This document shows positions 10,326 to 26,834 of a stretch of 32,000 nucleotides of DNA, one piece after another. The notes beneath the pieces were generated by a model, which was given only the letters and a program-made list of their open reading frames with translations, was not told the origin of the DNA and did no database searches. Source of the DNA: Desulfocapsa sulfexigens DSM 10523 (GTDB taxonomy: Bacteria; Desulfobacterota; Desulfobulbia; Desulfobulbales; Desulfocapsaceae); contig NC_020304.1 in NCBI RefSeq assembly GCF_000341395.1, positions 1,980,001 through 2,012,000 of the forward strand. The letters run 5' to 3'. The first letter of the stretch is position 1; every line of letters begins with the position of its first letter. The position numbers were made by a program, and so were the translations under genes.

Positions 10326-10357
10326 GTCGAAACAGGGTATCTGTTTCGACTTTTTTT
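10326..10357. terminator. Bidirectional intrinsic terminator between the precursor gene (+) and the cyclase gene (-)
   Basis: A perfect 10-bp stem, GTCGAAACAG-ggtat-CTGTTTCGAC, is flanked by AGAAA upstream and T7 downstream. Confidence 0.8.
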
Positions 10358-10380
10358 GTGTAAAGTGGTTTTCACCTGTC

Positions 10381-13205: not shown

Positions 13206-13271
13206 TGGTTTGTTGCTGCTAGAGCTGATTTGTCATCTTTGTACATAAGAGATCAAAGAATGTAATATTTT

Positions 13272-13547: not shown

Positions 13548-13679
13548 AATTTTGAAAGGAAACTTTTAATCTATATTACATGAAGTTTTTATATAAGAAT
13601 ATAGTGAGATATCGATATGTTATTTCTCTGGTGAATGCCGTCTGACCAGACTTTTACTAAATATTTTTGATGCAGTATT

Positions 13680-14129: not shown

Positions 14130-14171
14130 TAATTTTCATAGCTCCATTAAGAGTCTCTTTGTGGATGAAAT

Positions 14172-14852
14172 TTAGTAATGTAAAAGAGAACCTTCGTTTT
14201 TTGCTACTTTTAAACCATAATAAATGGAAACAAAACCAGTCGCTAATGAAACTATAGAGAGTATGGCGAGGAATAGAAGCTGATTATGTACATCAATAAT
14301 TCCTGCCCCATTTAAGAGTATCTGGCGTATCGCCTCCAGTCCATGGGTGATTGGAAGTATCACCGAGAATGGTTTGAGCCAACCTGGTAGTACGGTTACC
14401 GGATACATTACTCCACCAAGCAATCCAGAACTCATAATCATTAACCCACCGATCGGATTACCCTGTTTGAAGACAATTATAAAAGCGGCCGAGACAAGGC
14501 CAATACCAAAAAAAGGGAGTAGTGTGAGCAGAAATGCCAGAGACAATGCGATAATGTTCACTGATTGTATCGACATATCAAAGAGGTAAATACCTACAAG
14601 AATATAAAAGAAAATTCGGAAGCTGGTGGAAAAAAGCTTGTACACATAGGAGGACAGTAAAATAGTGATGATGGATGTTGGGGTTACCAGAAGTGATTCA
14701 AGGGTACCAACAACCTGCGAGGTGCGAATTTCGTTGGCAAATGTGTTGGTAGAGATGGTGAAGTAATCTGAAAGTGCTATTCCAATGATTACAAAAGAAA
14801 AATAATCACCACCATAGGGTTCCAGTTGAGAGACTTGGTTGCCCTCAAACAT
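14172..14852 (-). CDS. ABC-2-type transporter permease, main reading frame (C-terminal 226 aa)
   Basis: It is multi-TM and hydrophobic and lies directly downstream of the ABC ATPase. The expected N-terminal segment is in a different frame (see 14789..14995). Confidence 0.75.
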   Translation of the reverse strand: MFEGNQVSQLEPYGGDYFSFVIIGIALSDYFTISTNTFANEIRTSQVVGTLESLLVTPTSIITILLSSYVYKLFSTSFRIFFYILVGIYLFDMSIQSVNIIALSLAFLLTLLPFFGIGLVSAAFIIVFKQGNPIGGLMIMSSGLLGGVMYPVTVLPGWLKPFSVILPITHGLEAIRQILLNGAGIIDVHNQLLFLAILSIVSLATGFVSIYYGLKVAKNEGSLLHY

Positions 14853-14995
14853 TTTAGATAGAAGAAAAATGAAAAGGTAGTGAGTATAATACCAAACCCC
14901 TGTGTTGCATATTGCATGCGGTAGCTGGTCGCAATTTTGAAATCCCGCTTGAAAAAAGCGAAAGGTTTTGCAAAAAGTGTTGGCCTTGCCCTCAT
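14789..14995 (-). pseudogene. N-terminal fragment of the same ABC-2 permease in another frame (apparent 1-nt frameshift)
   Basis: The sequence MRARPTLFAKPFAFFKRDFKIATSYRMQYATQGFGIILTTFSFFFYLK looks like an ABC-2 permease N-terminus plus TM1. Its ATG overlaps the ATPase stop (ATGA). A -1 shift at the CTAAAATG run (about 14850-14857) joins it to MFEGNQVSQLEPYGGDYF... Confidence 0.5.
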
Positions 14996-15819
14996 ATTGA
15001 ATTGTCCCTAGTGGTATTTATGCCTGCTCCAGCAAGTGGTGAATTCTGAAAAAAGTCAACCAGGTTGCTGAATGCCAGTTCAATGTTCTGGGAACCAGAG
15101 TCTGACATCTCTTCTAATTTTCCACTGTAAAGAACCTTTCCTTTATGGAGTATGGTCGCATGATCACATATCTCTTCAGCTTCATGGAGATTATGTGTAC
15201 ACCAGATAATAGTTTTTTGTTCCTGTCGGGCAAGGGTCTCTTTAGTGAAAGTGAGGAGCTTTCTGGTGGCAATGGGATCGAGACTGGTAGTGGCCTCGTC
15301 CATAAGGAGAACTTCTGGATCAGAAAGCATGGCTCTTGCAATTGCCAGGCGCTGTTTCTGGCCGGAAGAATAAGACATGAATCGAGAATCGGCTTTGTCC
15401 TCCATTCCAGTGAGTTGCAAGGCTTTGTTGATTCGTTCAGCCTTTACTGAGCCATGTAAATTATAGAGTGTGGCAAAAAAATCGAGATTTTCACGTCCGG
15501 TAAGCCGCCAGTAGAAAGTTCGGTCATTCGTGCTGACCAGCCCAATTTTATTTCTGATTGCCAGAGATTGTGTGGCCAGGGAGAGTCCTGAAATTGATCC
15601 TTCACCACTGTCAGGGGTAACCAGAGTGGAAAGAATTTTGATAAGTGTTGTCTTGCCGGCACCATTTGGTCCAAGTAAACCCATGATTGTTCCTTTTTCA
15701 ACTGTCAGGGAGACGTTGTCAAGAGCAAGGGTTTGACGGGGCTTGCGAAACAAAAATGTCTTCCAGTTTCGTTCAGTAAAGGTTTTTGAAATATTATGGA
15801 GCTCAATTGCTGGAAGCAT
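14992..15819 (-). CDS. ABC transporter ATP-binding protein (export/immunity component of the lasso cluster)
   Basis: Walker A GPNGAGKTT, signature YSSGQKQRL, Walker B LLMDEATTSLD, H-loop CTHNL. Confidence 0.9.
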   Translation of the reverse strand: MLPAIELHNISKTFTERNWKTFLFRKPRQTLALDNVSLTVEKGTIMGLLGPNGAGKTTLIKILSTLVTPDSGEGSISGLSLATQSLAIRNKIGLVSTNDRTFYWRLTGRENLDFFATLYNLHGSVKAERINKALQLTGMEDKADSRFMSYSSGQKQRLAIARAMLSDPEVLLMDEATTSLDPIATRKLLTFTKETLARQEQKTIIWCTHNLHEAEEICDHATILHKGKVLYSGKLEEMSDSGSQNIELAFSNLVDFFQNSPLAGAGINTTRDNSI

Positions 15820-16491: not shown

Positions 16492-17094
16492 TCAATGCAA
16501 AATTATTCCCCGTTCCCGTAGCTCAGCAATAATGTCATTTACACAGTCACGGAGAGGACGTGTCCCTGTGTCGAGTTCAATGTCAGGATTCTCAGGGACT
16601 TCATAGGGGGAGGAGATGCCGGTATAGTTTTTAATCTCACCTGTTCTGGCTTTTTTATACAATCCTTTAACATCACGCTCTTCACATATTTCAAGAGGGC
16701 AGTTGCAGTAAACCTCGATAAGATTTTCAGCACCAATAATCTCTTTTACCCGTTCACGATCAGCCTTTAACGGAGAAATAAAAGCGGTGAGAGAAATAAC
16801 TCCGGAATCAAGAAAAAGATTTACCATTTCAGCGATACGACGCATATTCTCACTACGATCTTCCAGGCTGAACCCAAGGTCACCACATAACCCGTGTCGA
16901 ACATTATCACCGTCAAAAACATAGGTTCTGCACCCCATCAGGTGTAATCGCTCCTCTACTGCATGGGCCAGAGTCGATTTGCCTGAGCCTGAGAGCCCGG
17001 TAAACCAGAGGTTGATACTCATGTGGCCGTTCAGGGTTTCGCGACGTGGACGGCTGACTGCTGCGCGCTGTCGGATTACATGTGGAGAGTGCAT
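16492..17094 (-). CDS. cysC: Adenylyl-sulfate (APS) kinase
   Basis: 200 aa. It has the P-loop WFTGLSGSGKSTLA, DGDNVRHGL, and FISPLKADRE. Confidence 0.9.
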   Translation of the reverse strand: MHSPHVIRQRAAVSRPRRETLNGHMSINLWFTGLSGSGKSTLAHAVEERLHLMGCRTYVFDGDNVRHGLCGDLGFSLEDRSENMRRIAEMVNLFLDSGVISLTAFISPLKADRERVKEIIGAENLIEVYCNCPLEICEERDVKGLYKKARTGEIKNYTGISSPYEVPENPDIELDTGTRPLRDCVNDIIAELRERGIILH

Positions 17095-17143: not shown

Positions 17144-17362
17144 TTAATTTTGACGTAGTGAGCGGATTAGGCCGCTTAATACTTTCTCTATTTCTTCGAT
17201 TTTTGGTTCAATTGATGTTGTATCTTGTTGGTTGATAAAGCCCAAGCGTTTGGAGAGATTTACCTGATATTTTAGTTCTCGTAAAGATCCAAAGGCTATA
17301 GAGAGAAACCGAAGGTAATCCCCGACGGTCTCACGTGCACAGCCCTCAACAAAACATCTCCT
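17144..17362 (-). pseudogene. 5'-truncated relic of a four-helix-bundle protein gene (23S rRNA intervening-sequence protein family)
   Basis: My own translation of the minus strand gives (VEGCAR)ETVGDYLRFLSIAFGSLRELKYQVNLSKRLGFINQQDTTSIEPKIEEIEKVLSGLIRSLRQN*. There is no start codon, and the frame closes at a TGA (17363-17365) inside the galU 3' end. The ORF track does not list it. Confidence 0.5.
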
Positions 17363-18212
17363 TCAAATAAGGCAACAAAATATCCTTAATCTCAGGGTGT
17401 TCAAGCGCAAATGCAAGGTTCGCCATCTGAAATCCAGCCTTATCGCCACAGTCAAAGCGGGTACCTTCGAAACGATAGCCAAAAATAGGCTGTTCTTTAA
17501 GGAGTTGCGACATGGCATCTGTGAGTTGGATTTCACCCCCAGCACCTTTCCCCTGGCCACCAAGGATGTCAAATATTTTTGGAGTCAGGATATACCGGCC
17601 AATTACCGCCATATTGGATGGTGCTTCTTCAGCAGCCGGTTTCTCGATCATCCCATTTATGCGGAAGGTTGCCTCCGTTGTGGGATTAGCATCAAGAATA
17701 CCATATTTTGAGGTCTCTTCCTTTGGAACCTCAATGACTGCAACGGTAGATGCTCTCAGCCGATCAAATTCCTTAATCATTTGATAGAGTACAGGGGTCT
17801 CGCTTTTGATCAGATCGTCTGCCAGGAGAACGGCAAAGGGCTCGTCCCCGATAATATCTCTAGCACACCAGATCGCGTGGCCAAGACCTAAAGGTTCGCT
17901 CTGTCTGGTGTAAATGATAGTTCCTGACTCAGGCACAAGGGATTCGATTTCTTTTAAAAGTTCAACTTTATGACGATCTTTAAGGGTCTCTTCGAGCTGG
18001 AAGGATCGGTCAAAATGGTTTTCAAGTGCTCCCTTTCCACTGCCAGTGACAAAGATTAATTGTTCAATTCCTGACGCCAACGCCTCTTCAACCGCATATT
18101 GAATAAGAGGCTTATCGACAACGGGCAGCATTTCTTTTGGCATGGCCTTCGTCGCAGGAAGAAAACGAGTACCCAGTCCTGCAACCGGGAAGACAGCTTT
18201 TTTGACTTTCAT
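17346..18212 (-). CDS. galU: UTP--glucose-1-phosphate uridylyltransferase
   Basis: 288 aa. The N-terminus KAVFPVAGLGTRFLPATKAMPKEMLPVVDKPLIQY and the motif LLADDL are canonical GalU. Confidence 0.92.
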   Translation of the reverse strand: MKVKKAVFPVAGLGTRFLPATKAMPKEMLPVVDKPLIQYAVEEALASGIEQLIFVTGSGKGALENHFDRSFQLEETLKDRHKVELLKEIESLVPESGTIIYTRQSEPLGLGHAIWCARDIIGDEPFAVLLADDLIKSETPVLYQMIKEFDRLRASTVAVIEVPKEETSKYGILDANPTTEATFRINGMIEKPAAEEAPSNMAVIGRYILTPKIFDILGGQGKGAGGEIQLTDAMSQLLKEQPIFGYRFEGTRFDCGDKAGFQMANLAFALEHPEIKDILLPYLKEMFC

Positions 18213-18434: not shown

Positions 18435-19175
18435 ATGAAATACCTTTTTACTATTCTAGCGGTCGTCGCCTTGAGTTCAGTGGTTACGTTATATTATATT
18501 TGGCCCTCAGGAAGTACAAAGTCTGGAGATACTGCTCTCAGTGTCAATGGGCATATGATCTCACAGAAACAGGTTGATGATCAATCCCGTAAACAGGGCT
18601 ATCATTCTGGAGAAGCAAATGATTCCGTTAATTCTTTTGTGACGAGGCAGCTCTTACTTGATGAGGCGCAACGGCTTGGTATTGACAAGGAGAATGATTT
18701 CCGTAAGGCCCTCAAAGATTATTACGAGCAGTCTCTTATCAAGGTTCTTACGGATCGTAAACTGCAATCAATTACGGTGACTGTTGGTGAAGAAGATATA
18801 GATCGCTATCTCTCCTGTTCCGGAAAAATGTTCACCTTTACCAGGACTCCGGCAGAAAACGGGAAGATCCTGAGCGAACAGGGGCGTCAAAACAGCGTGC
18901 TTTTTGATGATTTGTCCGAATCGCTACGGTTGATACTAGCCAATCTGAAGCCTGGGGAAAATGTTATGCAGTTTGAGACCGGAACCGAGGTCAGTATGAT
19001 TTCTTTAGATAAAGTAGAAGATGCAGATGGTTTTGAACCAGTACCTTATGATCGAAAAAGGGTGGCTGAACTTCTGGTTGATTACAAGAAAGCTGCTGAG
19101 ATCGATAGCTGGATAGCCAGTTTGCGTAAGAAAGCATCCGTCGTTGTATATGGTGAGGAAGCAAAGAATGACTAG
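18435..19175 (+). CDS. Membrane-anchored periplasmic protein, SurA-N-terminal/PPIase-chaperone-like (tentative)
   Basis: It has an N-terminal TM helix. The segment VNGHMISQKQVDD...FVTRQLLLDEAQRLGIDKENDFRKALKDYYEQSLIKVL resembles SurA_N-type chaperone domains. No catalytic motif was recognised. Confidence 0.4.
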   Translation: MKYLFTILAVVALSSVVTLYYIWPSGSTKSGDTALSVNGHMISQKQVDDQSRKQGYHSGEANDSVNSFVTRQLLLDEAQRLGIDKENDFRKALKDYYEQSLIKVLTDRKLQSITVTVGEEDIDRYLSCSGKMFTFTRTPAENGKILSEQGRQNSVLFDDLSESLRLILANLKPGENVMQFETGTEVSMISLDKVEDADGFEPVPYDRKRVAELLVDYKKAAEIDSWIASLRKKASVVVYGEEAKND

Positions 19176-19773
19176 GAATCGTTATAAACGCAGAAATTAT
19201 TTTATTAAAAAGAATTTCCAGGGCAAGCTGATTCTCGGATATTTTCTTTTTATGGTTGTTGGGTGCCTTGTGTTTGCAGTTATTCTTACACTTTTGTCTG
19301 CAGACAGTATGACTATGACCTATCAGAATAATGACCTGCGCCTTGGTCAGACCCCTTTTATACTGATCAAGGAATTAGTGACAGCCCACTGGATTTTCAT
19401 AGTTTTGGGAAGTGCAATTGTGGTGGTCTGTGCGATGTTTATAACCCACAGACTTGCCGGTCCCATGTTTCGTCTTGAGCGAGCTGTTGATAATATGGTG
19501 AGTGGGCAGCTTGATGATGTCGTTTATTTGCGGGAAAAAGATGAAGGTAAGGAACTGGCGGCAAAACTCAATCAGTTCAATAGTCAATTATCTAAAAATA
19601 TAGGGGAAATCAGAAAGCGATCTAAAAATATTGACGATCTTCTGGCACAATATTCTTCCATCGAACAATCGGAAACAACTGCTGAAGATTGTGCTTCTAT
19701 TCAGAGTTCCATTGCCCGGCAAAATAAGATTATCCGGGAGATTGTCGTGACATACCAAATTCTTGATGAGTAA
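19168..19773 (+). CDS. Small membrane protein with a HAMP-like linker domain
   Basis: A GAGGAAG RBS precedes the ATG at 19168, which overlaps the upstream stop by 8 nt. It has two TM segments, then ITHRLAGPMFRLERAVDNMVSGQLDDVVYLREKDEGKELAAKLNQF (HAMP-like) and a coiled-coil tail. Confidence 0.55.
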   Translation: MTRNRYKRRNYFIKKNFQGKLILGYFLFMVVGCLVFAVILTLLSADSMTMTYQNNDLRLGQTPFILIKELVTAHWIFIVLGSAIVVVCAMFITHRLAGPMFRLERAVDNMVSGQLDDVVYLREKDEGKELAAKLNQFNSQLSKNIGEIRKRSKNIDDLLAQYSSIEQSETTAEDCASIQSSIARQNKIIREIVVTYQILDE

Positions 19774-20302
19774 AATACAGCTTTCAGTTCTCGTGCTTTT
19801 ACTCTGGCTGCCCGGTGCAGTTAATACTGTTCTGGCAGGGGAGCACAAAAGCCGATACGCAACCCTTACATACACTAATAACGAGGTGTTGCGGGAATTT
19901 AATGATAATATGCGTTTGAATAAGAAACTGAATTATTCAATGCGAAAGAACAATGTCGTTACTATGGCCGACGAGGTTCTGGCCAAGGCAGATATTATTA
20001 TTGAGAAGGTCCAGGTTGTGCTCGATATGTTTCCCGGAAAATACCATGTTCGTCTCGTTGTTGTTGGGGATTCCGGTGATGTCGCTCGTATTTACAAACA
20101 AAAATACGGTAAACGGGTGAGTCATATAGCCTATTATTCGCTCTCCGAAAAAACAATTTATATTTCAGCAGAGGATGCCAGCCTTCGGGTTCTCGCTCAT
20201 GAAGTTGGTCATTCCATTGTCGATCACTACTTTAAAGTCCGTCCACCCTATAACATTCATGAATTGATGGCTCAATTTGCTGAAAAGCATGTTACGGATT
20301 AG
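19766..20302 (+). CDS. Secreted HExxH zinc-metallopeptidase-like protein
   Basis: It has a signal peptide (MSKIQLSVLVLLLWLPGAVNTVLAG). LAHEVGHSIV is followed 17 aa later by HELMAQ, a gluzincin-like arrangement. Its ATG overlaps the upstream stop (ATGAGTAA). Confidence 0.5.
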   Translation: MSKIQLSVLVLLLWLPGAVNTVLAGEHKSRYATLTYTNNEVLREFNDNMRLNKKLNYSMRKNNVVTMADEVLAKADIIIEKVQVVLDMFPGKYHVRLVVVGDSGDVARIYKQKYGKRVSHIAYYSLSEKTIYISAEDASLRVLAHEVGHSIVDHYFKVRPPYNIHELMAQFAEKHVTD

Positions 20303-20345
20303 AAAGCTCAGCTTTTTTCCGTCATTCCCGCACAGGTGAGAATTT

Positions 20346-21809
20346 TCATGGCTTGGATTTTTTTAATGTATTGGTGAATAGGTTTAATACGGATTTCTGC
20401 TCCGCTGTAAGATCCTTGAATTTGAATCCATGGATGTGCTTTTCATCCTGTGTTGCAATCCACAGATGCTCAATGGTAAATTCCAATGGTGGAATGTTTG
20501 CGGAATCCTGGTTCTCAAAGTTGATTTTGGTGAAAAATGTCGATTCCAGCGTTGTCAGTTGCGGGATTGAGGCCATAAAGCCGCTTTTGGATATATTGGT
20601 TATCGTTCCATCCAGGTATCTGTCCTTTTCGGTGGTGTAATACCGGGCGGGAATAGAGACAGCATGCCTTGTATCACTGCGTATAATGTTAAAAATGTCA
20701 AGAGACTGACATATGAACTTGAGAGCTTTACAGGGAGCACCGCAGGAATCACGTTTTCTGCGGAATCTGCAACTGTAGCGCAGCAGATCCAGGATAAAGA
20801 ATGACGAAATAAAATAAAAGATCAGGTAGATTGCAAAAAACAGGAAGAGAGTGGAGTCGGTCAAATTATAAATTCGTCCCACAATACTGATGCTGCCAAG
20901 AAGGATACTGAGACCGATAATAATTTTTACGGTGTTTTCGCGGCTGAATCCATAGCGCATGAAAATATGATGTAAATGTTTTTTGTCAGCATGAAACGGA
21001 CTGGTTCCCTGGAGGATCCTCTTTGTCATCACTGTCAGCGTGTCGGCAATGGGAATACTGAGAATTAACAGGGCAGATATGGGAGACATGCAGGCATTGT
21101 CGCCCTGCGTCATTCCAAGTGACATAAAGGCAAGGGCAAATCCCAGTGACAGACTTCCGGCATCGCCCATAAAGAGCTTGGCCGGATGCCAGTTAAAACG
21201 AAGAAATCCCAATAGAGCACCTGCAAAAGCCAGGTTCAGAAGTAAAAATGTCTGATTTTGGGCAAGAGAGGCGTGAGCGGCAAATAACAAAAACGCAACA
21301 AAGCCAATCCCGCCGGCCAAGCCATCCAGCCCGTCAATAAGGTTGATGGCATTGATGACCCCTAGAAGACAAAAAATAGATATAAGAACAGACAGCCAGT
21401 ATCCCGGAATAATAATATCTCCCAGCCCGAGAAGATTGCCGAAGGAAACCAACCTGATATTACTAAAATAAATGAGGAGGGCGACAGCAAGGATCTGGCC
21501 CATGAATTTCTGACGATGTCCCAACTCTTTCAAATCGTCGAGAAACCCGATAAACAGCATCACCGTTAATCCCGCAAAAAAACCCCTTAGGCCGGTTGCC
21601 GGCATAATAAGTGCCGCTGCAAAACAGGCGGAAATGACAAAACCAAGACCACCCACGAGGGGTTTTGGGTCCACGTGTACCTTCCGTTCACTGGGCCAGT
21701 CGAGCAAATTTATCTTTTTGGCTATGTTTGCAAGCTTGGGCAGTATGAACATAGTCACGAAAAGTGCTATTAAAAAAATAAGTATGGGGCGGACATCCGA
21801 GTGAATCAT
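20346..21809 (-). CDS. WecA/MraY-family (GT4) polyprenyl-phosphate sugar-1-phosphate transferase fused to a C-terminal PilZ domain
   Basis: The N-terminal ~340 aa are polytopic with LDDLKELG, INLIDGLDGLA and MGDAGSLSLGF. The C-terminal ~110 aa carry the two PilZ c-di-GMP motifs: RSDTR (RxxxR, aa 377-381) and NISKSG ([D/N]xSxxG). Confidence 0.85.
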   Translation of the reverse strand: MIHSDVRPILIFLIALFVTMFILPKLANIAKKINLLDWPSERKVHVDPKPLVGGLGFVISACFAAALIMPATGLRGFFAGLTVMLFIGFLDDLKELGHRQKFMGQILAVALLIYFSNIRLVSFGNLLGLGDIIIPGYWLSVLISIFCLLGVINAINLIDGLDGLAGGIGFVAFLLFAAHASLAQNQTFLLLNLAFAGALLGFLRFNWHPAKLFMGDAGSLSLGFALAFMSLGMTQGDNACMSPISALLILSIPIADTLTVMTKRILQGTSPFHADKKHLHHIFMRYGFSRENTVKIIIGLSILLGSISIVGRIYNLTDSTLFLFFAIYLIFYFISSFFILDLLRYSCRFRRKRDSCGAPCKALKFICQSLDIFNIIRSDTRHAVSIPARYYTTEKDRYLDGTITNISKSGFMASIPQLTTLESTFFTKINFENQDSANIPPLEFTIEHLWIATQDEKHIHGFKFKDLTAEQKSVLNLFTNTLKKSKP

Positions 21810-22165
21810 AATTTCACAACATCACCATCAGGGAGCAGAATTGCTTGTGGAGAACGTGTCACTTCGATAATGTAAATGTATCAAAGATACGGGTAAAAGA
21901 ATACAGACTTGCCATCTTTTTACCAAAAATATTTCAGGAAAATTCTTAAGGCAAGGAGAGCATCCTAAAGGACATGTGCTGAGAAGTAAATAGGTAGAAA
22001 TACTGGTTTATCGTTTTTTCTTTGGGTTGAGACCTGTAACAACTCAAAGCTGCCCTGTATGTTGCAACCAGGGAGAGCGGGGTAAGCAGCAGCTTAAGCA
22101 TTACTTTCTAACTGAGGAGGAGCTCAAGAGAGCCTTCAGAGTTTTAATGATTTGCGGGGTGTCAA

Positions 22166-22414
22166 TTACGGCTGCATCTGTGACTCTTCCAGGTATTTCT
22201 TGTAGCCGTTTTGAGAAATATCAGAGTCTTTTACGACACCCTTAAGGGACTGAACAGTTGGAGTGACCTGGTAGTTCTTTTTTAATTTTCCGTTTTTAAT
22301 AATTACGAAAAAGTCTGAGAAAATCTTTGAGACTTATTTACCCGTTTTAGCAGAATATTCTTTTGCAGATTCGATCAGGTGGTCATCAAGTCGTAATGTG
22401 AGTTTTATGTTCAT
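22166..22414 (-). pseudogene. DUF6364-like (ribbon-helix-helix-type) antitoxin gene interrupted by one in-frame TAA
   Basis: A GGAGGG RBS precedes the ATG at 22414. My translation is MNIKLTLRLDDHLIESAKEYSAKTGK*VSKIFSDFFVIIKNGKLKKNYQVTPTVQSLKGVVKDSDISQNGYKKYLEESQMQP*. The premature TAA is at 22334-22336, and family-like sequence continues in the same frame. Confidence 0.55.
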
Positions 22415-22450
22415 TTCACCCTCCGGTTCTGTGTGACGGATTGTTTTAAG

Positions 22451-22478
22451 AGACTATAAGGAAATGTCAATTTGTCAA
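22451..22478 (-). promoter_or_regulatory. Putative promoter of the DUF6364-like gene
   Basis: On the minus strand: TTGACA (22478-22473), a 16-nt spacer, then TAGTCT (22456-22451). TTGACA is directly repeated (TTGACAAATTGACA). Confidence 0.35.
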
Positions 22479-22489
22479 GCCTGCCCCTG
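22465..22489. repeat. Left copy of a 25-bp direct repeat bracketing the TA/IR patch
   Basis: TGTCAATTTGTCAAGCCTGCCCCTG matches 23752-23776 at 23 of 25 positions. Confidence 0.8.
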
Positions 22490-22532
22490 ATTCCGAAGAG
22501 TAAATACATCGAGAAGAGAATTGGCATCAACC

Positions 22533-23009
22533 TTATAACAACGGAAGCATCAATGTGTTGGAGACGATATTGTTGTTCGTAAAGCCGTGTTTACGATAAA
22601 AGGCTTCTGCCTTATCATTAAGAACATGGACGATAATAACACGGACACCGACCTGTTCGGAAACGTTAATTGCTCGGGCAAGAGCATCTTTTAACAAACC
22701 TCGGCCAATATTCTGCCCCTGCCAGTTACAATCAACCGCCAAGCGACCAAGCACTAGAGCAGGGATAGGATCAGGCATATTCTTTTTTATGCGGTTTGTC
22801 GCTTCAGCACGAGCAACGCTTCCAGCAGCTAGAGCATAGTACCCTATCACCTGATTTTTAAAACAAACCACATACGTGCGTGACCCGCCACTCTGTTCGT
22901 TTTTCAATGCCCGGTGGATAAGCCATTCGTTGAGTGAAACTGTTCCACAATCAAAACCACTTAATAGGTGATTCGCTGTCAATTGTTCAGGAGCGCTTAT
23001 TTTTCCCAC
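22533..23009 (-). CDS. GNAT-family acetyltransferase toxin (TacT/KacT/ItaT-like)
   Basis: 158 aa. It has the DUF1778-partnered GNAT toxin hallmarks FDCGTVSLNEWLIHRALKNEQSGGSRTYVV and NWQGQNIGRGLL. It overlaps the antitoxin gene by 13 nt. Confidence 0.85.
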   Translation of the reverse strand: MGKISAPEQLTANHLLSGFDCGTVSLNEWLIHRALKNEQSGGSRTYVVCFKNQVIGYYALAAGSVARAEATNRIKKNMPDPIPALVLGRLAVDCNWQGQNIGRGLLKDALARAINVSEQVGVRVIIVHVLNDKAEAFYRKHGFTNNNIVSNTLMLPLL

Positions 23010-23284
23010 GGTGCTTTTGATAACAGTAGCTTACGGATAGCTTTGTTTTCATTAAGTGGCGTTTCTAAAGCTTTCTCAAAATCAGAAAATGCTTTATCAT
23101 CCAAGACAAAATTACGCCGATCACACAAAACTTGCTCAGCCTCACGACATGACGCTTCAAGGATAAAATCGGTCATCTTTTTGTGACTTGCAGCACAAGC
23201 CTGACCAATCAGCTCCCTCTGTTCCGGAAATGCACGGAGACTAATTACAGATGTGCGACGTGCTGTTGTGTTACTTGGTTTCAT
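22997..23284 (-). CDS. DUF1778-family antitoxin (TacA/KacA-like)
   Basis: 95 aa. The sequence ISLRAFPEQRELIGQACAASHKKMTDFILEASCREAEQVLCDRRNFVLDDKAFSDFEKALETP is typical of DUF1778. A GGAG RBS lies upstream. Confidence 0.85.
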   Translation of the reverse strand: MKPSNTTARRTSVISLRAFPEQRELIGQACAASHKKMTDFILEASCREAEQVLCDRRNFVLDDKAFSDFEKALETPLNENKAIRKLLLSKAPWEK

Positions 23285-23302
23285 AACGGTTTCTCCTTTT
23301 CA

Positions 23303-23353
23303 GTACAATATTGCACATACAGGAACCATATATCTCTGTATAGCTATTGTCAA
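23303..23353 (-). promoter_or_regulatory. TA-operon promoter plus near-palindromic operator candidate
   Basis: On the minus strand: TTGACA (23353-23348), a 17-nt spacer, then TATGGT (23330-23325). The near-palindrome GTACAATATTGCAC (23303-23316) has a perfect CAATATTG core and lies between the -10 and the RBS. Confidence 0.45.
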
Positions 23354-23410
23354 TACATGGTGCAGAGTTGTATAAGAGGAAAAAGTGGTGAATTTTTGAA
23401 AAAAGACAAC

Positions 23411-23676
23411 GGGGTCGCATCTTAATTATTAATTGTTGAGCCCCCGTCCGTTGACGAATGTTTAAAGCAATTATCTCGGTATGTTCACCTAAAATCCCGT
23501 ACGAAGAAAATGACAGGGGAAAGCGGTGTCGGCTCGAGCCGCTACTTTGGAATATCTGGAGCTGGCGTAGCTGTCAGGCATGGAATAATCGAAGGAAAAA
23601 TTACAAAGGATCGTAAATTGAGCAGGTAAGTCAATAGGCTCAGGAAGGCAATAACTAATAATTAAGATGCGACCCC
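23411..23676. repeat. 266-bp unit bounded by perfect 21-bp inverted repeats (MITE-like element or long-stem structured RNA)
   Basis: GGGGTCGCATCTTAATTATTA (23411-23431) is the exact reverse complement of 23656-23676. The 224-bp interior holds a GGCTCGAGCC palindrome and no convincing ORF. Confidence 0.6.
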
Positions 23677-23716
23677 AGTCCGTTTTCTTGACACAGTCGT
23701 GTCCTCGGCGAAGATT

Positions 23717-23764
23717 GTTTGTCAGTTTGTCAGTTTGTCAGTTTGTCAGTTTGTCAGTTTGTCA
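23717..23764. repeat. Perfect tandem repeat (GTTTGTCA) x 6
   Basis: Six uninterrupted 8-bp units. On the minus strand they read TTGACAAAC(TGACAAAC)n, a ladder of -35-like boxes. The last unit merges into the right direct-repeat copy. Confidence 0.9.
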
Positions 23765-23776
23765 AGCCTGACCCTG
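23752..23776. repeat. Right copy of the 25-bp direct repeat bracketing the TA/IR patch
   Basis: TGTCAGTTTGTCAAGCCTGACCCTG matches 22465-22489 at 23 of 25 positions. Confidence 0.8.
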
Positions 23777-23818
23777 GGTCTTTTATCAATCAATGGGTAA
23801 AGGTAAAGTTACAAGCAT

Positions 23819-24991
23819 CTATTGAAAAATCTTTTTTACACCTTCCCAACCCAGACGAAAAGGACGGCACACATTGTAGAGGTAGCATAACTTTCCAGGA
23901 AACGTAAATCTGCGGTAGTCTTCAATGGTAGGATTAAACAGCATTGTCAGAATAAGCCGTAACCGTGCCATGTTCGAATCCATGCACTTAAGTTGCCAGG
24001 AAGTGAAACGGCTGTTTTCGCCCTGGATTGTATTGCTCTTTGCAGGATCAAGAAAGATATTCTCCACCGATGTAGCCATATTTAATGCGTGTTGGTCCAG
24101 CCTCAGAATTTCCATGACTTTCTTTGGCATCTCTGTTGCAAAGAGACGTTGTGCTGCAAGCAGCCCTGTCGCAACCATTCTTTTTGCAGACCATTGTTCT
24201 GCAAGAAAAAGGACCAAATTCCAATCCATCTTTTTGTTTTGTGTGACAATTTCATGAACAGAAAACAACCATTCCAGGCGACCCCAGATATGTTTGGAAC
24301 CGTGAATGCAAAGATAGATAAGAAGATCCTCATTGCTTAGTGAAGGAACAGTGTAGTTCAGTAATTGAGCGTCAATCAGGCGATCTTGAAAAACATCCAT
24401 TGTTAACGCGTGTGGCAAACACCGGCCAGATAACTCCCAATGCAATTCCACGATAACGCCGGATTGAGAGTGGATGAAATTCAGATTGTCTTCCGTTTTT
24501 ATAAGGTGCTTCAGCTGTGAATGTGAAAATTGGATTTCAGGGGTATATCCTGATTTATTGAGGATTTCATAGACGGAAGAGACATCATTTATACTTACAA
24601 GGACATCGAGATCACAAAATGGACGAAGAGAGAGGTCGTTATAGAGATTACAGGCAAGTAGCGGGCCTTTGAAAGCGACAGCTGAAATATTATGTTCAGT
24701 AAGTAAGTTGATAAGCTGAATCAACACACCGACTTTACCAAGGTTGGATATGCCAATAGACCGCACGGTTCTTTTAATATCAGCAGCAATATTCTCTGGT
24801 ATCAGTTCCGGGCAACAATTGTTCCATGATGAGTGAATTAATGGTAGAAGTCCGTGGCGTGTGGCGAGTGAAAAAAAATGATTCAGGTCTATACCATCAT
24901 TTATCGCCTCAACAACTTTCTTGCGTAAAGCTGATGGCTCAATTGTTTTCAGGGAATAGAGGATGAGGTGTTGGCAATTATTTTGATTCAT
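23819..24991 (-). CDS. Nucleotidyltransferase family protein (NTP_transf_5-like)
   Basis: 390 aa. The region AVAFKGPLLACNLYNDLSLRPFCDLDVLV and the overall pattern match the 'uncharacterised nucleotidyltransferase' family. It overlaps the wecB 3' end by 14 nt. Confidence 0.65.
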   Translation of the reverse strand: MNQNNCQHLILYSLKTIEPSALRKKVVEAINDGIDLNHFFSLATRHGLLPLIHSSWNNCCPELIPENIAADIKRTVRSIGISNLGKVGVLIQLINLLTEHNISAVAFKGPLLACNLYNDLSLRPFCDLDVLVSINDVSSVYEILNKSGYTPEIQFSHSQLKHLIKTEDNLNFIHSQSGVIVELHWELSGRCLPHALTMDVFQDRLIDAQLLNYTVPSLSNEDLLIYLCIHGSKHIWGRLEWLFSVHEIVTQNKKMDWNLVLFLAEQWSAKRMVATGLLAAQRLFATEMPKKVMEILRLDQHALNMATSVENIFLDPAKSNTIQGENSRFTSWQLKCMDSNMARLRLILTMLFNPTIEDYRRFTFPGKLCYLYNVCRPFRLGWEGVKKIFQ

Positions 24992-26087
24992 GTTTGATCA
25001 GCCAGTCCACTATACGAATTGCTGAATGGCCATCCCATTTGTCAGGAATCCGTCTTTCTATCCCATTACCACTTAATGCAGCTTGAGCCGCAGCAATTAT
25101 TTTTTGGCCACTATTTCCAACGATTACGTTTGTTCCTACTTCGCAGGTGATTGGTCGTTCTGTGTTGTGTCGCATGGTGATGCATGGAACCCCCAGAACA
25201 GTGGTCTCCTCTTGCAAACCACCACTATCCGTTAAAACCAGTTTGGCATTCATGTTTAAATGGAGAAAATCGAGATAGCCCATTGGCTCAGTAATCCATA
25301 TCCCACTGACGACCGTATCCATATTTAGATAATGTGATAAGCCAAACTGCTCTATCATTTTTCTCGTTCTGGGATGGATAGGGAAAATAATAGGAAGGTC
25401 TTTACTGATTGTCTTTAAAGCCCCTAAAATTTCTTCAAGTGTTTCTTTGTCGTCAACATTGGATGGGCGATGCATTGTCAGGGTAGCGTAGCCCTTTTTC
25501 CGTAGGCCAAGTTTGGATAACAGATTTAATTGTGTCGCCATGGCCTTGTGTTTCAGTAACGTGTCAATCATCACATTACCCACAAAAATGATCTTTTCTG
25601 CTGCTACTCCTTCCGCGCGTAGGTTCTCATCGGCAAAATGGTCGGTAATAAAGAGATAGTCGCAAAGCACATCGGTACAGAGCCTGTTGATTTCTTCGGG
25701 CATTTCCATGTCCCTTGAACGTAACCCAGCTTCTACGTGCGCAACTTTGATACCAAGTTTTTTAGCTGTAATGGTACAGGCCATGGTTGAATTTACGTCG
25801 CCAACAACGATTACAAGATCAGGCTTTTCCCTGAGACAGATTTTTTCAAACAGCACCATAATCTTTGCCGTTTGCTCAGCATGGCTACCTGATCCAACTT
25901 CCAGATCGATATCTGGCTTTGGCATACCCAGATCATTAAAAAATGCCTTGGACATCTTTTCATCATAGTGCTGCCCAGTATGTACAAGTAAATGCTCTAT
26001 CTGCTCAGGGTGCTGATTCATAGCGTCAATGATTGGGGCCATTTTCATGAAGTTTGGTCTTGCACCGACAATATTAATTATCTTCAT
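24978..26087 (-). CDS. wecB: UDP-N-acetylglucosamine 2-epimerase (non-hydrolysing)
   Basis: 369 aa. The N-terminus MKIINIVGARPNFMKMAPII, HTGQHYD, and LTDSGGLQEE are canonical. Confidence 0.92.
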   Translation of the reverse strand: MKIINIVGARPNFMKMAPIIDAMNQHPEQIEHLLVHTGQHYDEKMSKAFFNDLGMPKPDIDLEVGSGSHAEQTAKIMVLFEKICLREKPDLVIVVGDVNSTMACTITAKKLGIKVAHVEAGLRSRDMEMPEEINRLCTDVLCDYLFITDHFADENLRAEGVAAEKIIFVGNVMIDTLLKHKAMATQLNLLSKLGLRKKGYATLTMHRPSNVDDKETLEEILGALKTISKDLPIIFPIHPRTRKMIEQFGLSHYLNMDTVVSGIWITEPMGYLDFLHLNMNAKLVLTDSGGLQEETTVLGVPCITMRHNTERPITCEVGTNVIVGNSGQKIIAAAQAALSGNGIERRIPDKWDGHSAIRIVDWLIKHESK

Positions 26088-26096
26088 TATTGCTCT

Positions 26097-26834
26097 CTAT
26101 TTCCTGAATCCAATTTTTGTCATAAATATCTGCCATGCAAAAACAGGTAATACCATTTGTCTTTTTATGCGTCTGGGCTCTGCCAGTAACCGATAAAACC
26201 ATTCAAGACCCAATTTACAGAAAATCTCAGGGGCTCTTTTCACCGTACCGGTAATAACATCCAGGGTTCCGCCAATCCCCTGACAGACACGAATGTGTTT
26301 TAACTTGTCCTGATGCCTTGCGAACCACTTCTCCTGTTTAGGTGAACCAAGAGCCAGAAAAAGAATCACAGCTTTGGATTCATTAATTTTATCCACAAGC
26401 ATGTCCATTTGGTCTTCAGGCCAATACCCATTACAACGTCCTGCAACCTGCAAGCCAGGTAAACGTTCTTCAAGGATCTCAACTGCTTTTTTATTCACTT
26501 CTTCTTTAGCACCATAAATAAATATCTTATACCCCTGCCTGGCAGATAAAGCACAGGTCTCCTGCATGAATTCACAACCGGGAACCCTGGATATTTGGGC
26601 ACCATGCAGTATTTTAGCTCCAAGCACCATACCAATACCATCGGGTAAAAGCAGGTCTGCATTCTTGAAACAATTATACAAGAACGGATCTGCAGGCACA
26701 GAAAAATTCTTTTCCGGATTGGTTGCAAAAATAGTGTGGGGACGGTCGCCATGATCAACGAAATCGCTGACTTTTTGCAAGGCTTCAGCCATGCTGACAG
26801 CATCGGTCCAGATATTTAATATCGGGTATCTCAT
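26097..26834 (-). CDS. WecG/TagA/CpsF-family (GT26) glycosyltransferase
   Basis: 245 aa with LLLPDGIGMVLGAKILHG, LALGSPKQEKW and QGIGGTLDVITGTVKRAP. Confidence 0.85.
   Translation of the reverse strand: MRYPILNIWTDAVSMAEALQKVSDFVDHGDRPHTIFATNPEKNFSVPADPFLYNCFKNADLLLPDGIGMVLGAKILHGAQISRVPGCEFMQETCALSARQGYKIFIYGAKEEVNKKAVEILEERLPGLQVAGRCNGYWPEDQMDMLVDKINESKAVILFLALGSPKQEKWFARHQDKLKHIRVCQGIGGTLDVITGTVKRAPEIFCKLGLEWFYRLLAEPRRIKRQMVLPVFAWQIFMTKIGFRK

What the first reader, a model, noticed from the sequence alone, without database searches (positions are those of the whole stretch)
20346..20700. Priming phosphoglycosyl transferase (WecA/MraY family) fused to a canonical PilZ c-di-GMP receptor domain
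The last ~110 aa of the 487-aa GT4-family membrane enzyme contain both c-di-GMP-binding signatures in the right order and spacing. These are RSDTR (RxxxR) and, 22 residues later, NISKSG ([D/N]xSxxG), followed by beta-rich sequence.

PilZ control is well established for processive synthases and co-polymerases (BcsA, Alg44). Here it would act on the very first lipid-linked step of a Wzx/Wzy- or ABC-type pathway. That would place glycan initiation under direct second-messenger control. I am not aware of an experimentally characterised example.
Basis: partly seen in the sequence, partly recalled or inferred. Interest (0 to 1): 0.65.

Follow-up and report, generated by a model that had tools for sequence, protein, structure and literature searches.

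The report
WecA-like priming enzyme fused to PilZ
A membrane enzyme that starts sugar-polymer assembly on the lipid carrier has a sensor domain for the bacterial signal c-di-GMP fused to its cytoplasmic tail. The signal could therefore control the first step of slime-polysaccharide synthesis directly, an arrangement that is conserved in nature but apparently never tested.

Summary
ORF 20346..21809 (-) encodes a 487-aa protein in two parts.

- **Catalytic body:** an 11-helix MraY/WecA-type polyprenyl-phosphate HexNAc-1-phosphate transferase. It matches Pfam Glycos_transf_4 at E 2e-42, and every catalytic residue known from E. coli WecA is kept.
- **Tail:** a canonical PilZ domain (aa 377-485).
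  - It has RSDTR at aa 377-381 and NISKSG at aa 405-410.
  - The model shows a six-stranded barrel and a C-terminal helix.
  - It scores 26.3 bits against Pfam PilZ when scanned alone.
  - Foldseek matches it to c-di-GMP-bound PilZ structures.

The fusion is a conserved family, not an accident. In 110 full-length homologues (47-83 % identity) the five signature positions are kept in 108-110 sequences. Named relatives are almost all Desulfobulbales.

In nine fetched loci the gene heads a block for polysaccharide export and polymerisation: an outer-membrane barrel, a Wza-like exporter, a Wzc-like tyrosine kinase and a Wzy_C/TPR protein. The window's own Desulfocapsa-like clade lacks that block at this site.

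I infer that c-di-GMP binds the tail and allosterically switches, most likely on, the transfer of HexNAc-1-P to undecaprenyl phosphate. Binding and its effect on activity are untested. I found no paper on this architecture, although databases already tag both domains. I rate it a new variant of a known kind, of moderately high interest.

The parts
20346..21809 (-). Whole gene: 487-aa WecA-like polyprenyl-phosphate HexNAc-1-P transferase with a C-terminal PilZ domain (stop codon included).
   Evidence: ORF list. Pfam finds Glycos_transf_4 plus PilZ. Most of the 120 best-scoring homologues listed are full-length and most carry both precomputed domains.
20757..21809 (-). Catalytic membrane body, aa 1-351, with 11 predicted transmembrane helices. 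The Pfam Glycos_transf_4 core is aa 76-231 (window 21117-21584).
   Evidence: AF2 helices H7-32 through H318-351, with pLDDT mostly above 90. Foldseek matches MraY at E 4e-11, TM-score (normalised to target length) 0.75-0.80, and also DPAGT1. TIGR02380 ECA_wecA scores 209 bits, below its 326-bit cut-off. Identity to E. coli WecA is 33 %, E 4e-44.
21534..21539 (-). D91-D92, equivalent to E. coli WecA D90/D91. These residues are taken to form the Mg2+/diphosphate site.
   Evidence: Alignment to WecA. Invariant in all 110 homologues. The functional role is from established WecA mutagenesis, recalled from my own knowledge.
21318..21353 (-). N153-x-x-N156-x-x-D159-G-x-D162-G-L164 motif in cytoplasmic loop 3. 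D159 and D162 correspond to WecA D156 and D159.
   Evidence: N153, N156, D159, G160, D162, G163 and L164 are all invariant.
21162..21173 (-). F213-M-G-D216 motif in cytoplasmic loop 4. D216 corresponds to WecA D217.
   Evidence: F213, G215 and D216 are invariant.
20967..20978 (-). H278-L-H-H281 in cytoplasmic loop 5, corresponding to the WecA H279-I-H-H sugar-nucleotide recognition motif. R264 (WecA R265) lies upstream.
   Evidence: H278, H280, H281 and R264 are invariant.
20694..20738 (-). Linker helix aa 358-372 between TM11 and PilZ. It follows the basic stretch RYSCRFRRKRD (aa 344-354), which marks the cytoplasmic side.
   Evidence: AF2 secondary structure, pLDDT about 53-61. Sequence.
20667..20681 (-). 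PilZ motif 1, R377-S-D-T-R381 (RxxxR), in a flexible loop at the start of the barrel.
   Evidence: R377 is kept in 108 of 110 and R381 in 110 of 110. The loop just before it, aa 370-376, has pLDDT below 50.
20580..20597 (-). PilZ motif 2, N405-I-S407-K-S-G410 ([D/N]xSxxG).
   Evidence: N/D405, S407 and G410 are kept in all 110.
20355..20681 (-). PilZ domain, aa 377-485: six beta-strands (382-465) followed by a C-terminal helix (469-485).
   Evidence: Pfam PilZ at 26.3 bits when scanned alone. All 27 family C-termini tested hit PilZ, best E 2e-15. AF2 model. Foldseek matches 4xrn_D (TM-score normalised to target length 0.78, rmsd 2.7), MapZ 5xly, MotI 5vx6, YcgR 5y6g and BcsA 4p00. A profile of the family C-termini hits PP4397 (2gjg/3kyf) at E 3e-4.
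20460..20471 (-). Family-specific E447-H-L-W450 motif. Together with H460-G461-x-x-F464 it lies on the last two strands. Its role is unknown; it could be a domain interface or an extra ligand contact.
   Evidence: W450 and G461 are invariant. E447, H448, H460 and F464 are kept in at least 90 % of sequences.
18435..20302 (+). Three small convergent genes (246, 209 and 179 aa) that accompany the wecA-PilZ/export locus in all related loci. They are a weak EpsD-like PPIase, a TM+HAMP-like protein, and a secreted protein with an HEVGH motif.
   Evidence: tblastn synteny table. NCBIfam weak hits.
23819..26834 (-). Upstream same-strand sugar genes: NTP_transf_5 (23819-24991), UDP-GlcNAc 2-epimerase WecB-like (24978-26087) and a WecG/TagA/CpsF-family transferase (26097-26834).
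   Evidence: Pfam. NTP_transf_5 also neighbours the gene in L002, L004 and L010.

Best explanation
The gene encodes a polytopic phosphoglycosyl transferase of the MraY/WecA superfamily. It transfers a HexNAc-1-phosphate, most likely GlcNAc-1-P, from its UDP-sugar to undecaprenyl phosphate. This is the first committed step of a Wzy-dependent exopolysaccharide pathway.

An eleventh transmembrane helix brings the chain back into the cytoplasm. There a short linker helix carries a canonical PilZ domain, on the same face of the membrane as the active-site loops.

Proposed mechanism, by analogy with BcsA and YcgR: c-di-GMP binds the RxxxR loop and the [D/N]xSxxG strand. This orders the flexible junction between linker and barrel and re-orients PilZ against the cytoplasmic loops. 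That movement switches catalysis, most probably relieving an auto-inhibited state. Undecaprenyl phosphate would then be committed to this exopolysaccharide only when c-di-GMP is high.

Shown here: both domains, their intact signature residues, the predicted fold and topology, family-wide conservation and the genomic context. Inferred: ligand binding, the sugar transferred, allosteric coupling and the direction of the effect.
For: **Domains**
- Pfam finds both domains. All 27 family C-termini tested hit PilZ, best E 2e-15. Distant members score 35-45 bits against PilZ.
- The AF2 model has pLDDT 88 and pTM 0.77. It shows 11 TM helices, a linker helix, a six-stranded barrel and a C-terminal helix. 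The loop just before the RxxxR motif is low-confidence, as expected for a flexible switch.
- Foldseek matches the body to MraY/DPAGT1 and the tail to c-di-GMP-bound PilZ structures, including BcsA. A sequence profile of the tail hits the PP4397 PilZ domain.

**Residues**
- The binding residues are kept in 108-110 of 110 homologues down to 47 % identity.
- All WecA residues known to be essential are kept.

**Context**
- In L001, L004, L008 and L010-L014 the gene directly precedes a 143-aa gene, a BBP2_2 barrel, a Poly_export/EpsE-like exporter, a Wzz+tyrosine-kinase protein (EpsF/G-like) and a Wzy_C+TPR protein. L009 shows the first three before its DNA ends.
- The window itself carries WecB-like and WecG/TagA-like genes, GalU and ManC nearby.
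- L002 has a separate PilZ-less paralogue next door, 30 % identical, as expected if the fused copy is a pathway-dedicated, regulated version.
Against: - No binding or activity data exist.
- PilZ in the window protein itself is only borderline against Pfam when scored in the full-length protein (22.2 against 22.5 bits).
- The protein is below the WecA equivalog cut-off (209 against 326 bits), so the sugar transferred is not established.
- In the window's own clade (window, L005, L007) the export block is not adjacent. The pathway link there rests on relatives.
- WecB and WecG were not found within the held flanks of the other loci.
- Model coordinates and PAE were not available, so no PilZ-to-active-site contact could be examined.
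- A few close relatives lack PilZ (P0123, P0130), and P0016 lacks the first Arg. The domain can therefore be lost.
Confidence: 0.55

Rival explanations
1. PilZ binds c-di-GMP but acts as a signal-dependent docking module rather than an allosteric switch on catalysis. It would recruit or release a partner, such as the next glycosyltransferase, the Wzc-like kinase or co-polymerase, or a polar landmark, in order to assemble or localise the pathway.
For: PilZ C-terminal helices and surfaces often mediate protein-protein contacts, for example MapZ-CheR1 and PilZ-FimX (preprint 10.1101/814665). Family-specific conserved surface motifs EHLW and HGFxF lie outside the c-di-GMP signatures. The gene has tight, conserved linkage to the Wzc-like and Wzy_C genes. 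A precedent exists for partner-mediated PGT activation: EpsW acting on EpsZ (PMC12802240).
Against: Covalent fusion directly after the last TM helix, next to the catalytic loops, resembles BcsA, where the effect is intramolecular. No partner has been identified.
Confidence: 0.2
2. c-di-GMP inhibits the enzyme. At high c-di-GMP, undecaprenyl phosphate would be diverted away from this glycan, for example a planktonic-phase surface polymer, towards other pathways.
For: The direction of the effect cannot be read from sequence. PilZ proteins such as YcgR and MotI are inhibitory (Foldseek neighbours). Undecaprenyl phosphate is a shared, limiting substrate (PMC12802240 abstract).
Against: The context is a Wza/Wzc/Wzy exopolysaccharide locus of the PEP-CTERM-associated type. 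From established knowledge, characterised cases of c-di-GMP acting on polysaccharide enzymes (BcsA, Alg44, PgaCD, HfsJ) are activating.
Confidence: 0.12
3. The PilZ domain is a structural or degenerate adaptor that no longer binds c-di-GMP, like the type-II PilZ proteins of Pseudomonas and Xanthomonas.
For: The Pfam score in the window protein is marginal. A few relatives have lost the domain or lack part of the motif: P0123 has no PilZ, P0016 lacks the first Arg, and P0138 has no clear RxxxR.
Against: Both motifs are kept in 108-110 of 110 sequences at 47-83 % identity with fixed spacing. That pattern indicates selection for ligand binding. Degenerate PilZ domains characteristically lack these motifs (10.1101/814665).
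Confidence: 0.1
4. The fusion is an assembly or gene-calling artefact that joins two separate genes.
For: None found.
Against: The reading frame is continuous. About 100 full-length homologues from independent assemblies share the same architecture. The AF2 model shows a continuous TM11-linker-PilZ chain.
Confidence: 0.01

Closest known systems
BcsA cellulose synthase (PilZ-gated)
   Same: A membrane-embedded glycan-synthesis enzyme with a canonical PilZ domain fused directly after its last transmembrane helix, on the cytoplasmic side near the active site. Foldseek aligns the tail to BcsA 4p00/5ej1. The RxxxR motif sits in the flexible linker.
   Different: BcsA is a processive GT-A (GT2) synthase that polymerises and translocates without a lipid carrier. 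This enzyme is a PNPT-fold phosphoglycosyl transferase that performs a single transfer to undecaprenyl phosphate, at the head of a Wzy-dependent pathway. No gating-loop equivalent has been identified.
E. coli WecA (also TagO and WbpL; the MraY/DPAGT1 PNPT superfamily)
   Same: 33 % identity to WecA (E 4e-44), 11 TM helices, and all essential Asp/His/Arg motifs conserved. The fold matches MraY.
   Different: WecA ends after TM11 at 367 aa. This protein carries about 125 extra residues forming PilZ. It scores below the WecA equivalog cut-off, so it is a WecA-like paralogue whose sugar specificity is unproven.
Alg44 (alginate co-polymerase with PilZ)
   Same: A PilZ domain that binds c-di-GMP is needed post-translationally for exopolysaccharide production. 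This rests on established knowledge. Alg44 is named as a PilZ-HlyD fusion and a PilZ dimer in 10.1101/814665.
   Different: In Alg44 the PilZ domain sits on a non-catalytic partner in a synthase-dependent pathway. Here it sits on the catalytic priming enzyme itself.
Caulobacter HfsJ
   Same: c-di-GMP binds directly to a glycosyltransferase that acts on a lipid-linked intermediate of a Wzy-type adhesin pathway, and activates it (PMC9980756).
   Different: HfsJ is described there as a predicted glycolipid glycosyltransferase, not the priming PGT. From my own knowledge it is a soluble WecG/TagA-family enzyme without a PilZ domain.
Myxococcus EpsZ activated by EpsW
   Same: Post-translational activation of the initiating phosphoglycosyl transferase of a Wzx/Wzy EPS pathway by a signalling module (PMC12802240).
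   Different: EpsZ is a monotopic-type (WbaP-like) PGT. Its regulator is a separate phosphorylated response regulator, not a fused c-di-GMP receptor.
E. coli NfrB (MshEN-domain glycosyltransferase)
   Same: A membrane glycosyltransferase whose polysaccharide output is controlled locally by c-di-GMP (PMC8669469). From my own knowledge, the receptor domain is fused at the C-terminus.
   Different: From my own knowledge, NfrB is a GT2-type synthase and its receptor is MshEN, not PilZ.

Membership tests
PilZ domain (Pfam PF07238), canonical c-di-GMP-binding type | Match to the PilZ profile at or above the curated cut-off | tested here: met
   26.3 bits against a 22.5-bit cut-off for the isolated C-terminus, and 22.2 bits in the full-length context. 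All 27 family C-termini tested match, best E 2e-15. Distant members score 35-45 bits.
PilZ domain (Pfam PF07238), canonical c-di-GMP-binding type | RxxxR motif in the N-terminal flexible segment | tested here: met
   R377-SDT-R381. R377 is kept in 108 of 110 and R381 in 110 of 110. The loop just before it, aa 370-376, has pLDDT below 50.
PilZ domain (Pfam PF07238), canonical c-di-GMP-binding type | [D/N]xSxxG motif about 20-30 residues downstream | tested here: met
   N405-I-S407-K-S-G410, 23 residues after R381. N/D, S and G are kept in all 110, and the 23-aa spacing in 100 of 110.
PilZ domain (Pfam PF07238), canonical c-di-GMP-binding type | Six-stranded beta-barrel followed by a C-terminal alpha-helix | tested here: met
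   AF2 predicts strands 382-391, 398-406, 410-414, 424-429, 442-454 and 457-465, and helix 469-485. Foldseek matches 4xrn_D with TM-score (normalised to target length) 0.78 and rmsd 2.7 A, plus MapZ, MotI, YcgR and BcsA.
PilZ domain (Pfam PF07238), canonical c-di-GMP-binding type | Specific binding of c-di-GMP | not testable with these tools
   Needs DRaCALA, ITC or MST on aa ~355-487 with R377A, R381A and S407A controls.
MraY/WecA polyprenyl-phosphate HexNAc-1-P transferases (PNPT, polytopic PGT; Pfam PF00953) | Profile match and PNPT fold | tested here: met
   PF00953 at E 2e-42. Foldseek matches MraY at E 4e-11, TM-score (normalised to target length) 0.75-0.80, and also DPAGT1.
MraY/WecA polyprenyl-phosphate HexNAc-1-P transferases (PNPT, polytopic PGT; Pfam PF00953) | Catalytic motifs: DD, NxxNxxDGxDGL, FMGD and the loop-5 HxHH/Arg | tested here: met
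   D91/D92, N153...L164, D216, R264 and H278-L-H-H align with WecA D90/D91, D156/D159, D217, R265 and H279-I-H-H. All are invariant in 110 homologues.
MraY/WecA polyprenyl-phosphate HexNAc-1-P transferases (PNPT, polytopic PGT; Pfam PF00953) | WecA-type 11-TM topology with a cytoplasmic C-terminus | tested here: met
   The model has 11 long helices. The catalytic loops and the basic stretch after TM11 (aa 344-354) lie on one side. This is model-based and not experimental.
WecA proper (TIGR02380 equivalog: UDP-GlcNAc:Und-P GlcNAc-1-P transferase) | Score at or above the equivalog cut-off, implying GlcNAc specificity | tested here: not met
   209.3 bits against a 326.05-bit cut-off. The HxHH motif and the nearby WecB/WecG genes favour GlcNAc, but the substrate is unproven. 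I therefore file it as 'WecA-like' only.
PilZ-gated polysaccharide synthases (BcsA type) | Processive GT2 synthase and translocation channel | tested here: not met
   No GT2 domain is present. The fold is PNPT. It may work like BcsA in its regulation, but it is not a member.
PilZ-gated polysaccharide synthases (BcsA type) | Auto-inhibitory contact between a PilZ arginine and a gating element, released by c-di-GMP | not testable with these tools
This needs structures with and without c-di-GMP, or mutagenesis.

The most novel reading that the evidence does not exclude
This is the first family in which a second messenger acts directly on a polytopic priming phosphoglycosyl transferase. In this reading, c-di-GMP binding to the fused PilZ opens the UDP-sugar/undecaprenyl-phosphate site. 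Commitment of the shared lipid carrier to a Wzy-dependent exopolysaccharide would then be gated at step one. It would be a regulatory principle for Wzx/Wzy pathways parallel to BcsA gating in synthase pathways. A relative carrying a weak GGDEF-like tail (P0128) hints that such fusions may have arisen more than once.
Probability: 0.4. Interest if true: 0.75.

Novelty: new variant of a known kind. Interest (0 to 1): 0.6.

Why it matters
Post-translational control is well worked out for synthase-dependent polysaccharides, where BcsA, Alg44, PelD and PgaCD all respond to c-di-GMP. A 2025 study states that it is incompletely understood for Wzx/Wzy-dependent pathways (PMC12802240).

The priming transferase is the logical control point. 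It commits undecaprenyl phosphate, a scarce carrier shared with peptidoglycan and other glycans. A natural fusion of that enzyme to a c-di-GMP receptor would show that bacteria use the second messenger at exactly this step.

The fusion also offers a compact single-polypeptide system for studying allosteric regulation of the MraY/WecA/DPAGT1 fold, which is a drug-target fold. The family is conserved in Desulfobulbales, sulfur-cycling sediment bacteria, where it could link surface attachment or aggregate formation to c-di-GMP.

Tried and rejected
- **c-di-GMP riboswitch or other RNA upstream of the gene:** Rfam gave no match at gathering score anywhere in the window. The promoter/terminator scan of 20200-23900 was no better than shuffles.
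- **GTDB genome scan with the broad C-terminal alignment A2:** A narrower alignment, A3, worked but returned only 11 loci, so taxonomic breadth is under-sampled.
- **Cluster-member names for taxonomy:** uninformative.
- **Literature:** PilZ was combined with WecA, Glycos_transf_4, undecaprenyl, phosphoglycosyl transferase, MraY/domain architectures and GlcNAc-1-phosphate. I also searched c-di-GMP plus priming glycosyltransferase, polyPGT plus fusion, and HfsJ. None described this architecture. Two PubMed Central ids I tried from memory for older c-di-GMP reviews were not held, so a passing mention in a subscription paper or in a database architecture table cannot be excluded.
- **The 540-570-aa WecA-like proteins:** I considered that these, from the representative search, might carry another receptor domain. 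Two were read in sequence (P0145, P0161) and their extensions are extra hydrophobic helices. A third, P0135 (543 aa), has a low-complexity tail. Rejected.
- **The ABC-2/ABC transporter at 14172-15819:** I considered that it might mark an ABC-type glycan pathway. It sits with a set of genes resembling a lasso-peptide cluster instead.
- **Gene-fusion artefact:** rejected.
Full report
**1. What is in the sequence**

ORF 20346..21809 on the minus strand encodes a 487-aa protein. Pfam finds Glycos_transf_4 (PF00953) at aa 76-231, E 2e-42. It finds PilZ (PF07238) at aa 377-476. In the context of the whole protein PilZ scores 22.2 bits, just under the 22.5-bit gathering score. Scanned alone, the C-terminal 124 aa score 26.3 bits, E 9.5e-06.

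NCBIfam's best hit is the WecA equivalog TIGR02380, at 209 bits against a 326-bit cut-off. MraY models score much lower.

RSDTR is aa 377-381 (window 20681..20667) and NISKSG is aa 405-410 (20597..20580). They are separated by 23 residues. The ordered pair with 15-35 aa spacing occurs in only 85 of 200,000 shuffles of the C-terminal 125 aa.

The gap is 23 residues, not 22. The motif serine is S407; residue 396 is Asp. Pfam's 'Glycos_transf_4' is the MraY/WecA PNPT superfamily, not CAZy family GT4.

**2. The enzyme part is intact**

BLASTP against E. coli K-12 WecA (fetched) gives 33 % identity over 300 aa, E 4e-44. The WecA residues known to be essential align as follows:

| E. coli WecA | This protein |
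|---|---|
| D90/D91 | D91/D92 |
| D156/D159 | D159/D162 |
| D217 (VFMGD) | D216 |
| R265 | R264 |
| H279-I-H-H | H278-L-H-H |

That these WecA residues are essential is recalled from the WecA mutagenesis literature. One such paper appears in the reference list shown. All the aligned residues are invariant in 110 homologues.

E. coli WecA ends at residue 367, just after its eleventh helix. The protein here continues for about 125 more residues.

**3. Structure**

AlphaFold2 was run with the 110-sequence alignment. It gives mean pLDDT 88 and pTM 0.77. The model contains:
- eleven long helices between residues 7 and 351;
- a linker helix at 358-372;
- a low-confidence loop at 370-376, immediately before the RxxxR motif;
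- six beta-strands between 382 and 465;
- a C-terminal helix at 469-485.

The last two elements are the canonical PilZ layout.

Foldseek against the PDB matches the body to MraY (E 4e-11, TM-score normalised to target length 0.75-0.80) and to human DPAGT1. It matches the tail to PilZ structures:
- BcsA with c-di-GMP, 4p00 (E 1.5e-5);
- MotI, 5vx6;
- the P. aeruginosa PilZ/c-di-GMP complex, 4xrn_D (TM-score normalised to target length 0.78, rmsd 2.7 A over 105 columns);
- MapZ, 5xly;
- YcgR PilZ, 5y6g.

A sequence profile of the family's C-termini hits the PilZ domain of PP4397 (2gjg/3kyf), E 3e-4.

The catalytic loops and the basic stretch RYSCRFRRKRD after TM11 lie on one side of the membrane. 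PilZ is therefore predicted to be cytoplasmic and adjacent to the active-site face. This is inferred from the model and the positive-inside rule.

**4. It is a conserved family**

The homologue search returned 5,725 hits at E ≤ 1e-5. Most of the 120 best-scoring hits listed are full-length proteins of about 480-500 aa at 47-83 % identity. Most carry precomputed PF00953 and PF07238.

In the 110-sequence alignment, conservation is as follows:
- R381, S407 and G410 are invariant.
- R377 is kept in 108 of 110.
- Position 405 is N in 104 and D in 6.
- The 23-aa spacing is kept in 100 of 110.

All 27 C-terminal domains that were tested individually hit Pfam PilZ, best E 2e-15.

An exhaustive search of 1.84 billion representatives clustered at 50 % identity found about a dozen full-length clusters whose match runs through the PilZ part, down to 35 % identity. 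The five checked score 35-45 bits against PilZ.

Other relatives differ. Some are plain WecA-like proteins (P0123, 364 aa, 51 % identity). P0138 has a PilZ domain that does not align with this one. P0128 has a weak, sub-threshold GGDEF-like tail. Of the 540-570-aa relatives, the two I read (P0145, P0161) simply have extra hydrophobic helices.

A scan of GTDB species genomes found 11 loci. The seven with a named lineage are all Desulfobulbales: Desulfocapsa, Desulfocapsaceae, Desulforhopalus, Desulfobulbaceae and Desulfobulbus sp. Tol-SR. The other four are unclassified delta proteobacteria or Desulfobacterales.

The closest locus is a Desulfocapsa metagenome-assembled genome. It is 83 % identical over the whole protein, and its neighbouring GalU and APS kinase are 95 % identical. 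The window therefore most likely comes from a Desulfocapsa-like organism.

**5. Genomic context**

In L001, L004, L008 and L010-L014 the gene is immediately followed on the same strand by five genes:
- a 143-aa gene;
- a BBP2_2 outer-membrane barrel (weak TIGR03016, PEP-CTERM-associated);
- a Poly_export protein (best hit EpsE);
- a Wzz/GNVR protein with a tyrosine autokinase (best hits EpsF/EpsG/Wzc);
- a 778-aa Wzy_C+TPR protein.

L009 shows the first three of these before its DNA ends. L015 keeps most of the block, but no wecA-PilZ match covering more than half the query was scored there.

Three small convergent genes follow the block. This is the machinery of a Wzy-dependent exopolysaccharide system of the Wza/Wzc type, and the PilZ-bearing priming enzyme is its first gene.

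In the window and its two closest relatives (L005, L007) the three small genes are still adjacent, at 18435-20302, but the five-gene block is absent at this site.

The window is nevertheless a sugar-polymer neighbourhood. It contains:
- ManC (9-1124);
- a PEP-CTERM protein (9089-10036);
- APS kinase;
- GalU;
- NTP_transf_5;
- a UDP-GlcNAc 2-epimerase (24978-26087);
- a WecG/TagA/CpsF-family transferase (26097-26834);
- a heparinase II/III-like protein;
- a Gfo/Idh/MocA fusion protein.

From established knowledge, WecG/TagA enzymes act on Und-PP-GlcNAc. Together with the HxHH motif this favours GlcNAc-1-P as the sugar transferred. This is not proven, and WecB and WecG were not found within the held flanks of the other loci.

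In L002 a second PilZ-less PNPT paralogue sits next door. It is 349 aa and 30 % identical, and it has no HxHH motif. This fits the view that the fused copy is a dedicated, regulated version.

**6. How it most likely works**

Two things are shown by computation. The protein is a catalytically competent-looking WecA-type priming transferase. It carries a covalently attached, motif-complete PilZ domain on the cytoplasmic side, and this arrangement is conserved under selection.

The rest is inferred. c-di-GMP, probably as an intercalated dimer as in other PilZ domains, binds R377/R381 and N405/S407/G410. This orders the flexible linker-barrel junction and changes how PilZ packs against the cytoplasmic loops, as in the BcsA and YcgR 'c-di-GMP switch'. 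Catalysis is altered as a result.

Two observations make activation, by release of auto-inhibition, the most likely direction. The context is exopolysaccharide export. The characterised c-di-GMP effects on polysaccharide enzymes are also activating: BcsA, Alg44, PgaCD and HfsJ.

My estimates are:
- about 0.97 that the architecture is real;
- about 0.8 that it binds c-di-GMP;
- about 0.55 that it allosterically controls catalysis;
- about 0.4-0.45 that the effect is activation.

The rival explanations are a c-di-GMP-dependent docking role, inhibition, a degenerate non-binding PilZ, and an artefact. The last is excluded.

**7. Comparison with what is known, and novelty**

Its regulation is most likely to work like that of BcsA, but it is not a BcsA-type synthase. 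It has no GT2 domain, it has the PNPT fold, and it performs a single transfer to a lipid carrier.

It is a member of the PNPT superfamily and carries a bona fide PilZ domain. It is not an equivalog of WecA by NCBI's cut-off.

Two known cases come close:
- HfsJ is a glycosyltransferase acting on a glycolipid intermediate. It binds c-di-GMP (PMC9980756).
- EpsZ is a priming PGT of a Wzx/Wzy pathway. It is activated by the separate response regulator EpsW (PMC12802240).

The EpsZ paper states that post-translational regulation of Wzx/Wzy pathways is incompletely understood, and it lists c-di-GMP only for synthase-dependent systems.

Nine full-text searches, the Galperin and Chou PilZ survey and a 2025 review of c-di-GMP effectors yielded no description of a PilZ-fused priming transferase.

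The domain pair is visible to automated annotation. Both Pfam domains are precomputed in the protein database, and one relative is named 'PilZ domain-containing protein'. The architecture is therefore not invisible, only undescribed and untested.

I classify it as a new variant of a known kind, with interest 0.6.

**8. Limits**

- No binding or activity data exist.
- Model coordinates and PAE were not available, so the domain interface is unexamined.
- The sugar specificity is unknown.
- The pathway link in the window's own clade rests on relatives.
- Taxonomic breadth is under-sampled.
- Older subscription reviews could not be read.

Noticed in passing
window 10080-15819: A gene set resembling a lasso-peptide cluster sits beside the polysaccharide genes. 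It comprises an Asn-synthase-like cyclase (10381-12246, best hit NF033535 lasso cyclase, 452 bits against a 525-bit cut-off), an HprK-related kinase (12243-13205), PqqD (13272-13547), Transglut_core3 (13680-14129) and an ABC-2/ABC transporter (14172-15819). A 70-aa ORF on the opposite strand (10080-10292) ends ...VVRLTA|GCAGSGADSGTYSESSFIGPDGSCQST. It has Thr at -2 and a possible Gly1-Asp8 ring, so it looks like a precursor, and its C-terminal Ser/Thr could be the kinase target.
   Followed up: partly
window 18435-20302 (+); L001 19871-21482; L004, L008, L010-L015: Three small genes always lie convergent to the wecA-PilZ/export locus across Desulfobulbales. They are a 246-aa protein with a weak EpsD-type PPIase hit, a 209-aa membrane protein with a HAMP-like segment, and a 179-aa secreted protein with an HEVGH zinc-protease-like motif. 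Their function is unknown.
   Followed up: partly
window 20302-20346 compared with L001 11483-19870: In the window, L005 and L007 (Desulfocapsa clade) the five-gene export block is missing between wecA-PilZ and the three small genes. The block (143-aa gene, BBP2_2, Poly_export, Wzz-tyrosine kinase, Wzy_C-TPR) follows wecA-PilZ in the other fetched loci. L005 has two other ORFs (217 and 288 aa) in that position instead.
   Followed up: partly
window 22533-23284 (-): A TacT-like GNAT toxin and TacA antitoxin pair is inserted between wecA-PilZ and the upstream sugar genes. Related loci (L002, L004) also have toxin-antitoxin modules (AbiE, ParE, HipA, VapBC, BrnT) packed around the gene.
   Followed up: no
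window 16492-17094 (-) and 17346-18212 (-): An APS kinase lies next to GalU. The two are also found together in L002, L005 and L007. This may indicate PAPS supply for a sulfated exopolysaccharide.
   Followed up: no
protein P0128 (506 aa; representative-library hit): A WecA-like relative, 48 % identical over the enzyme part, carries a weak GGDEF-like C-terminal domain (22.7 bits, below the 23.8-bit cut-off) instead of PilZ. It may be a second, independent fusion of a c-di-GMP-related module to this enzyme type.
   Followed up: partly
window 23819-24991 (-); L002 11653-12744; L004 3730-4917; L010 6248-7246: An uncharacterised nucleotidyltransferase (Pfam NTP_transf_5) recurs near wecA-PilZ in several loci. 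Its order and orientation relative to the gene vary.
   Followed up: no
window 2799-8848 (+): An ordinary nitrogen-regulation cluster (AmtB, PII, GlnD, GlnA) borders the polysaccharide region. The GlnD/GlnA-APS kinase-GalU arrangement is shared with L002.
   Followed up: no
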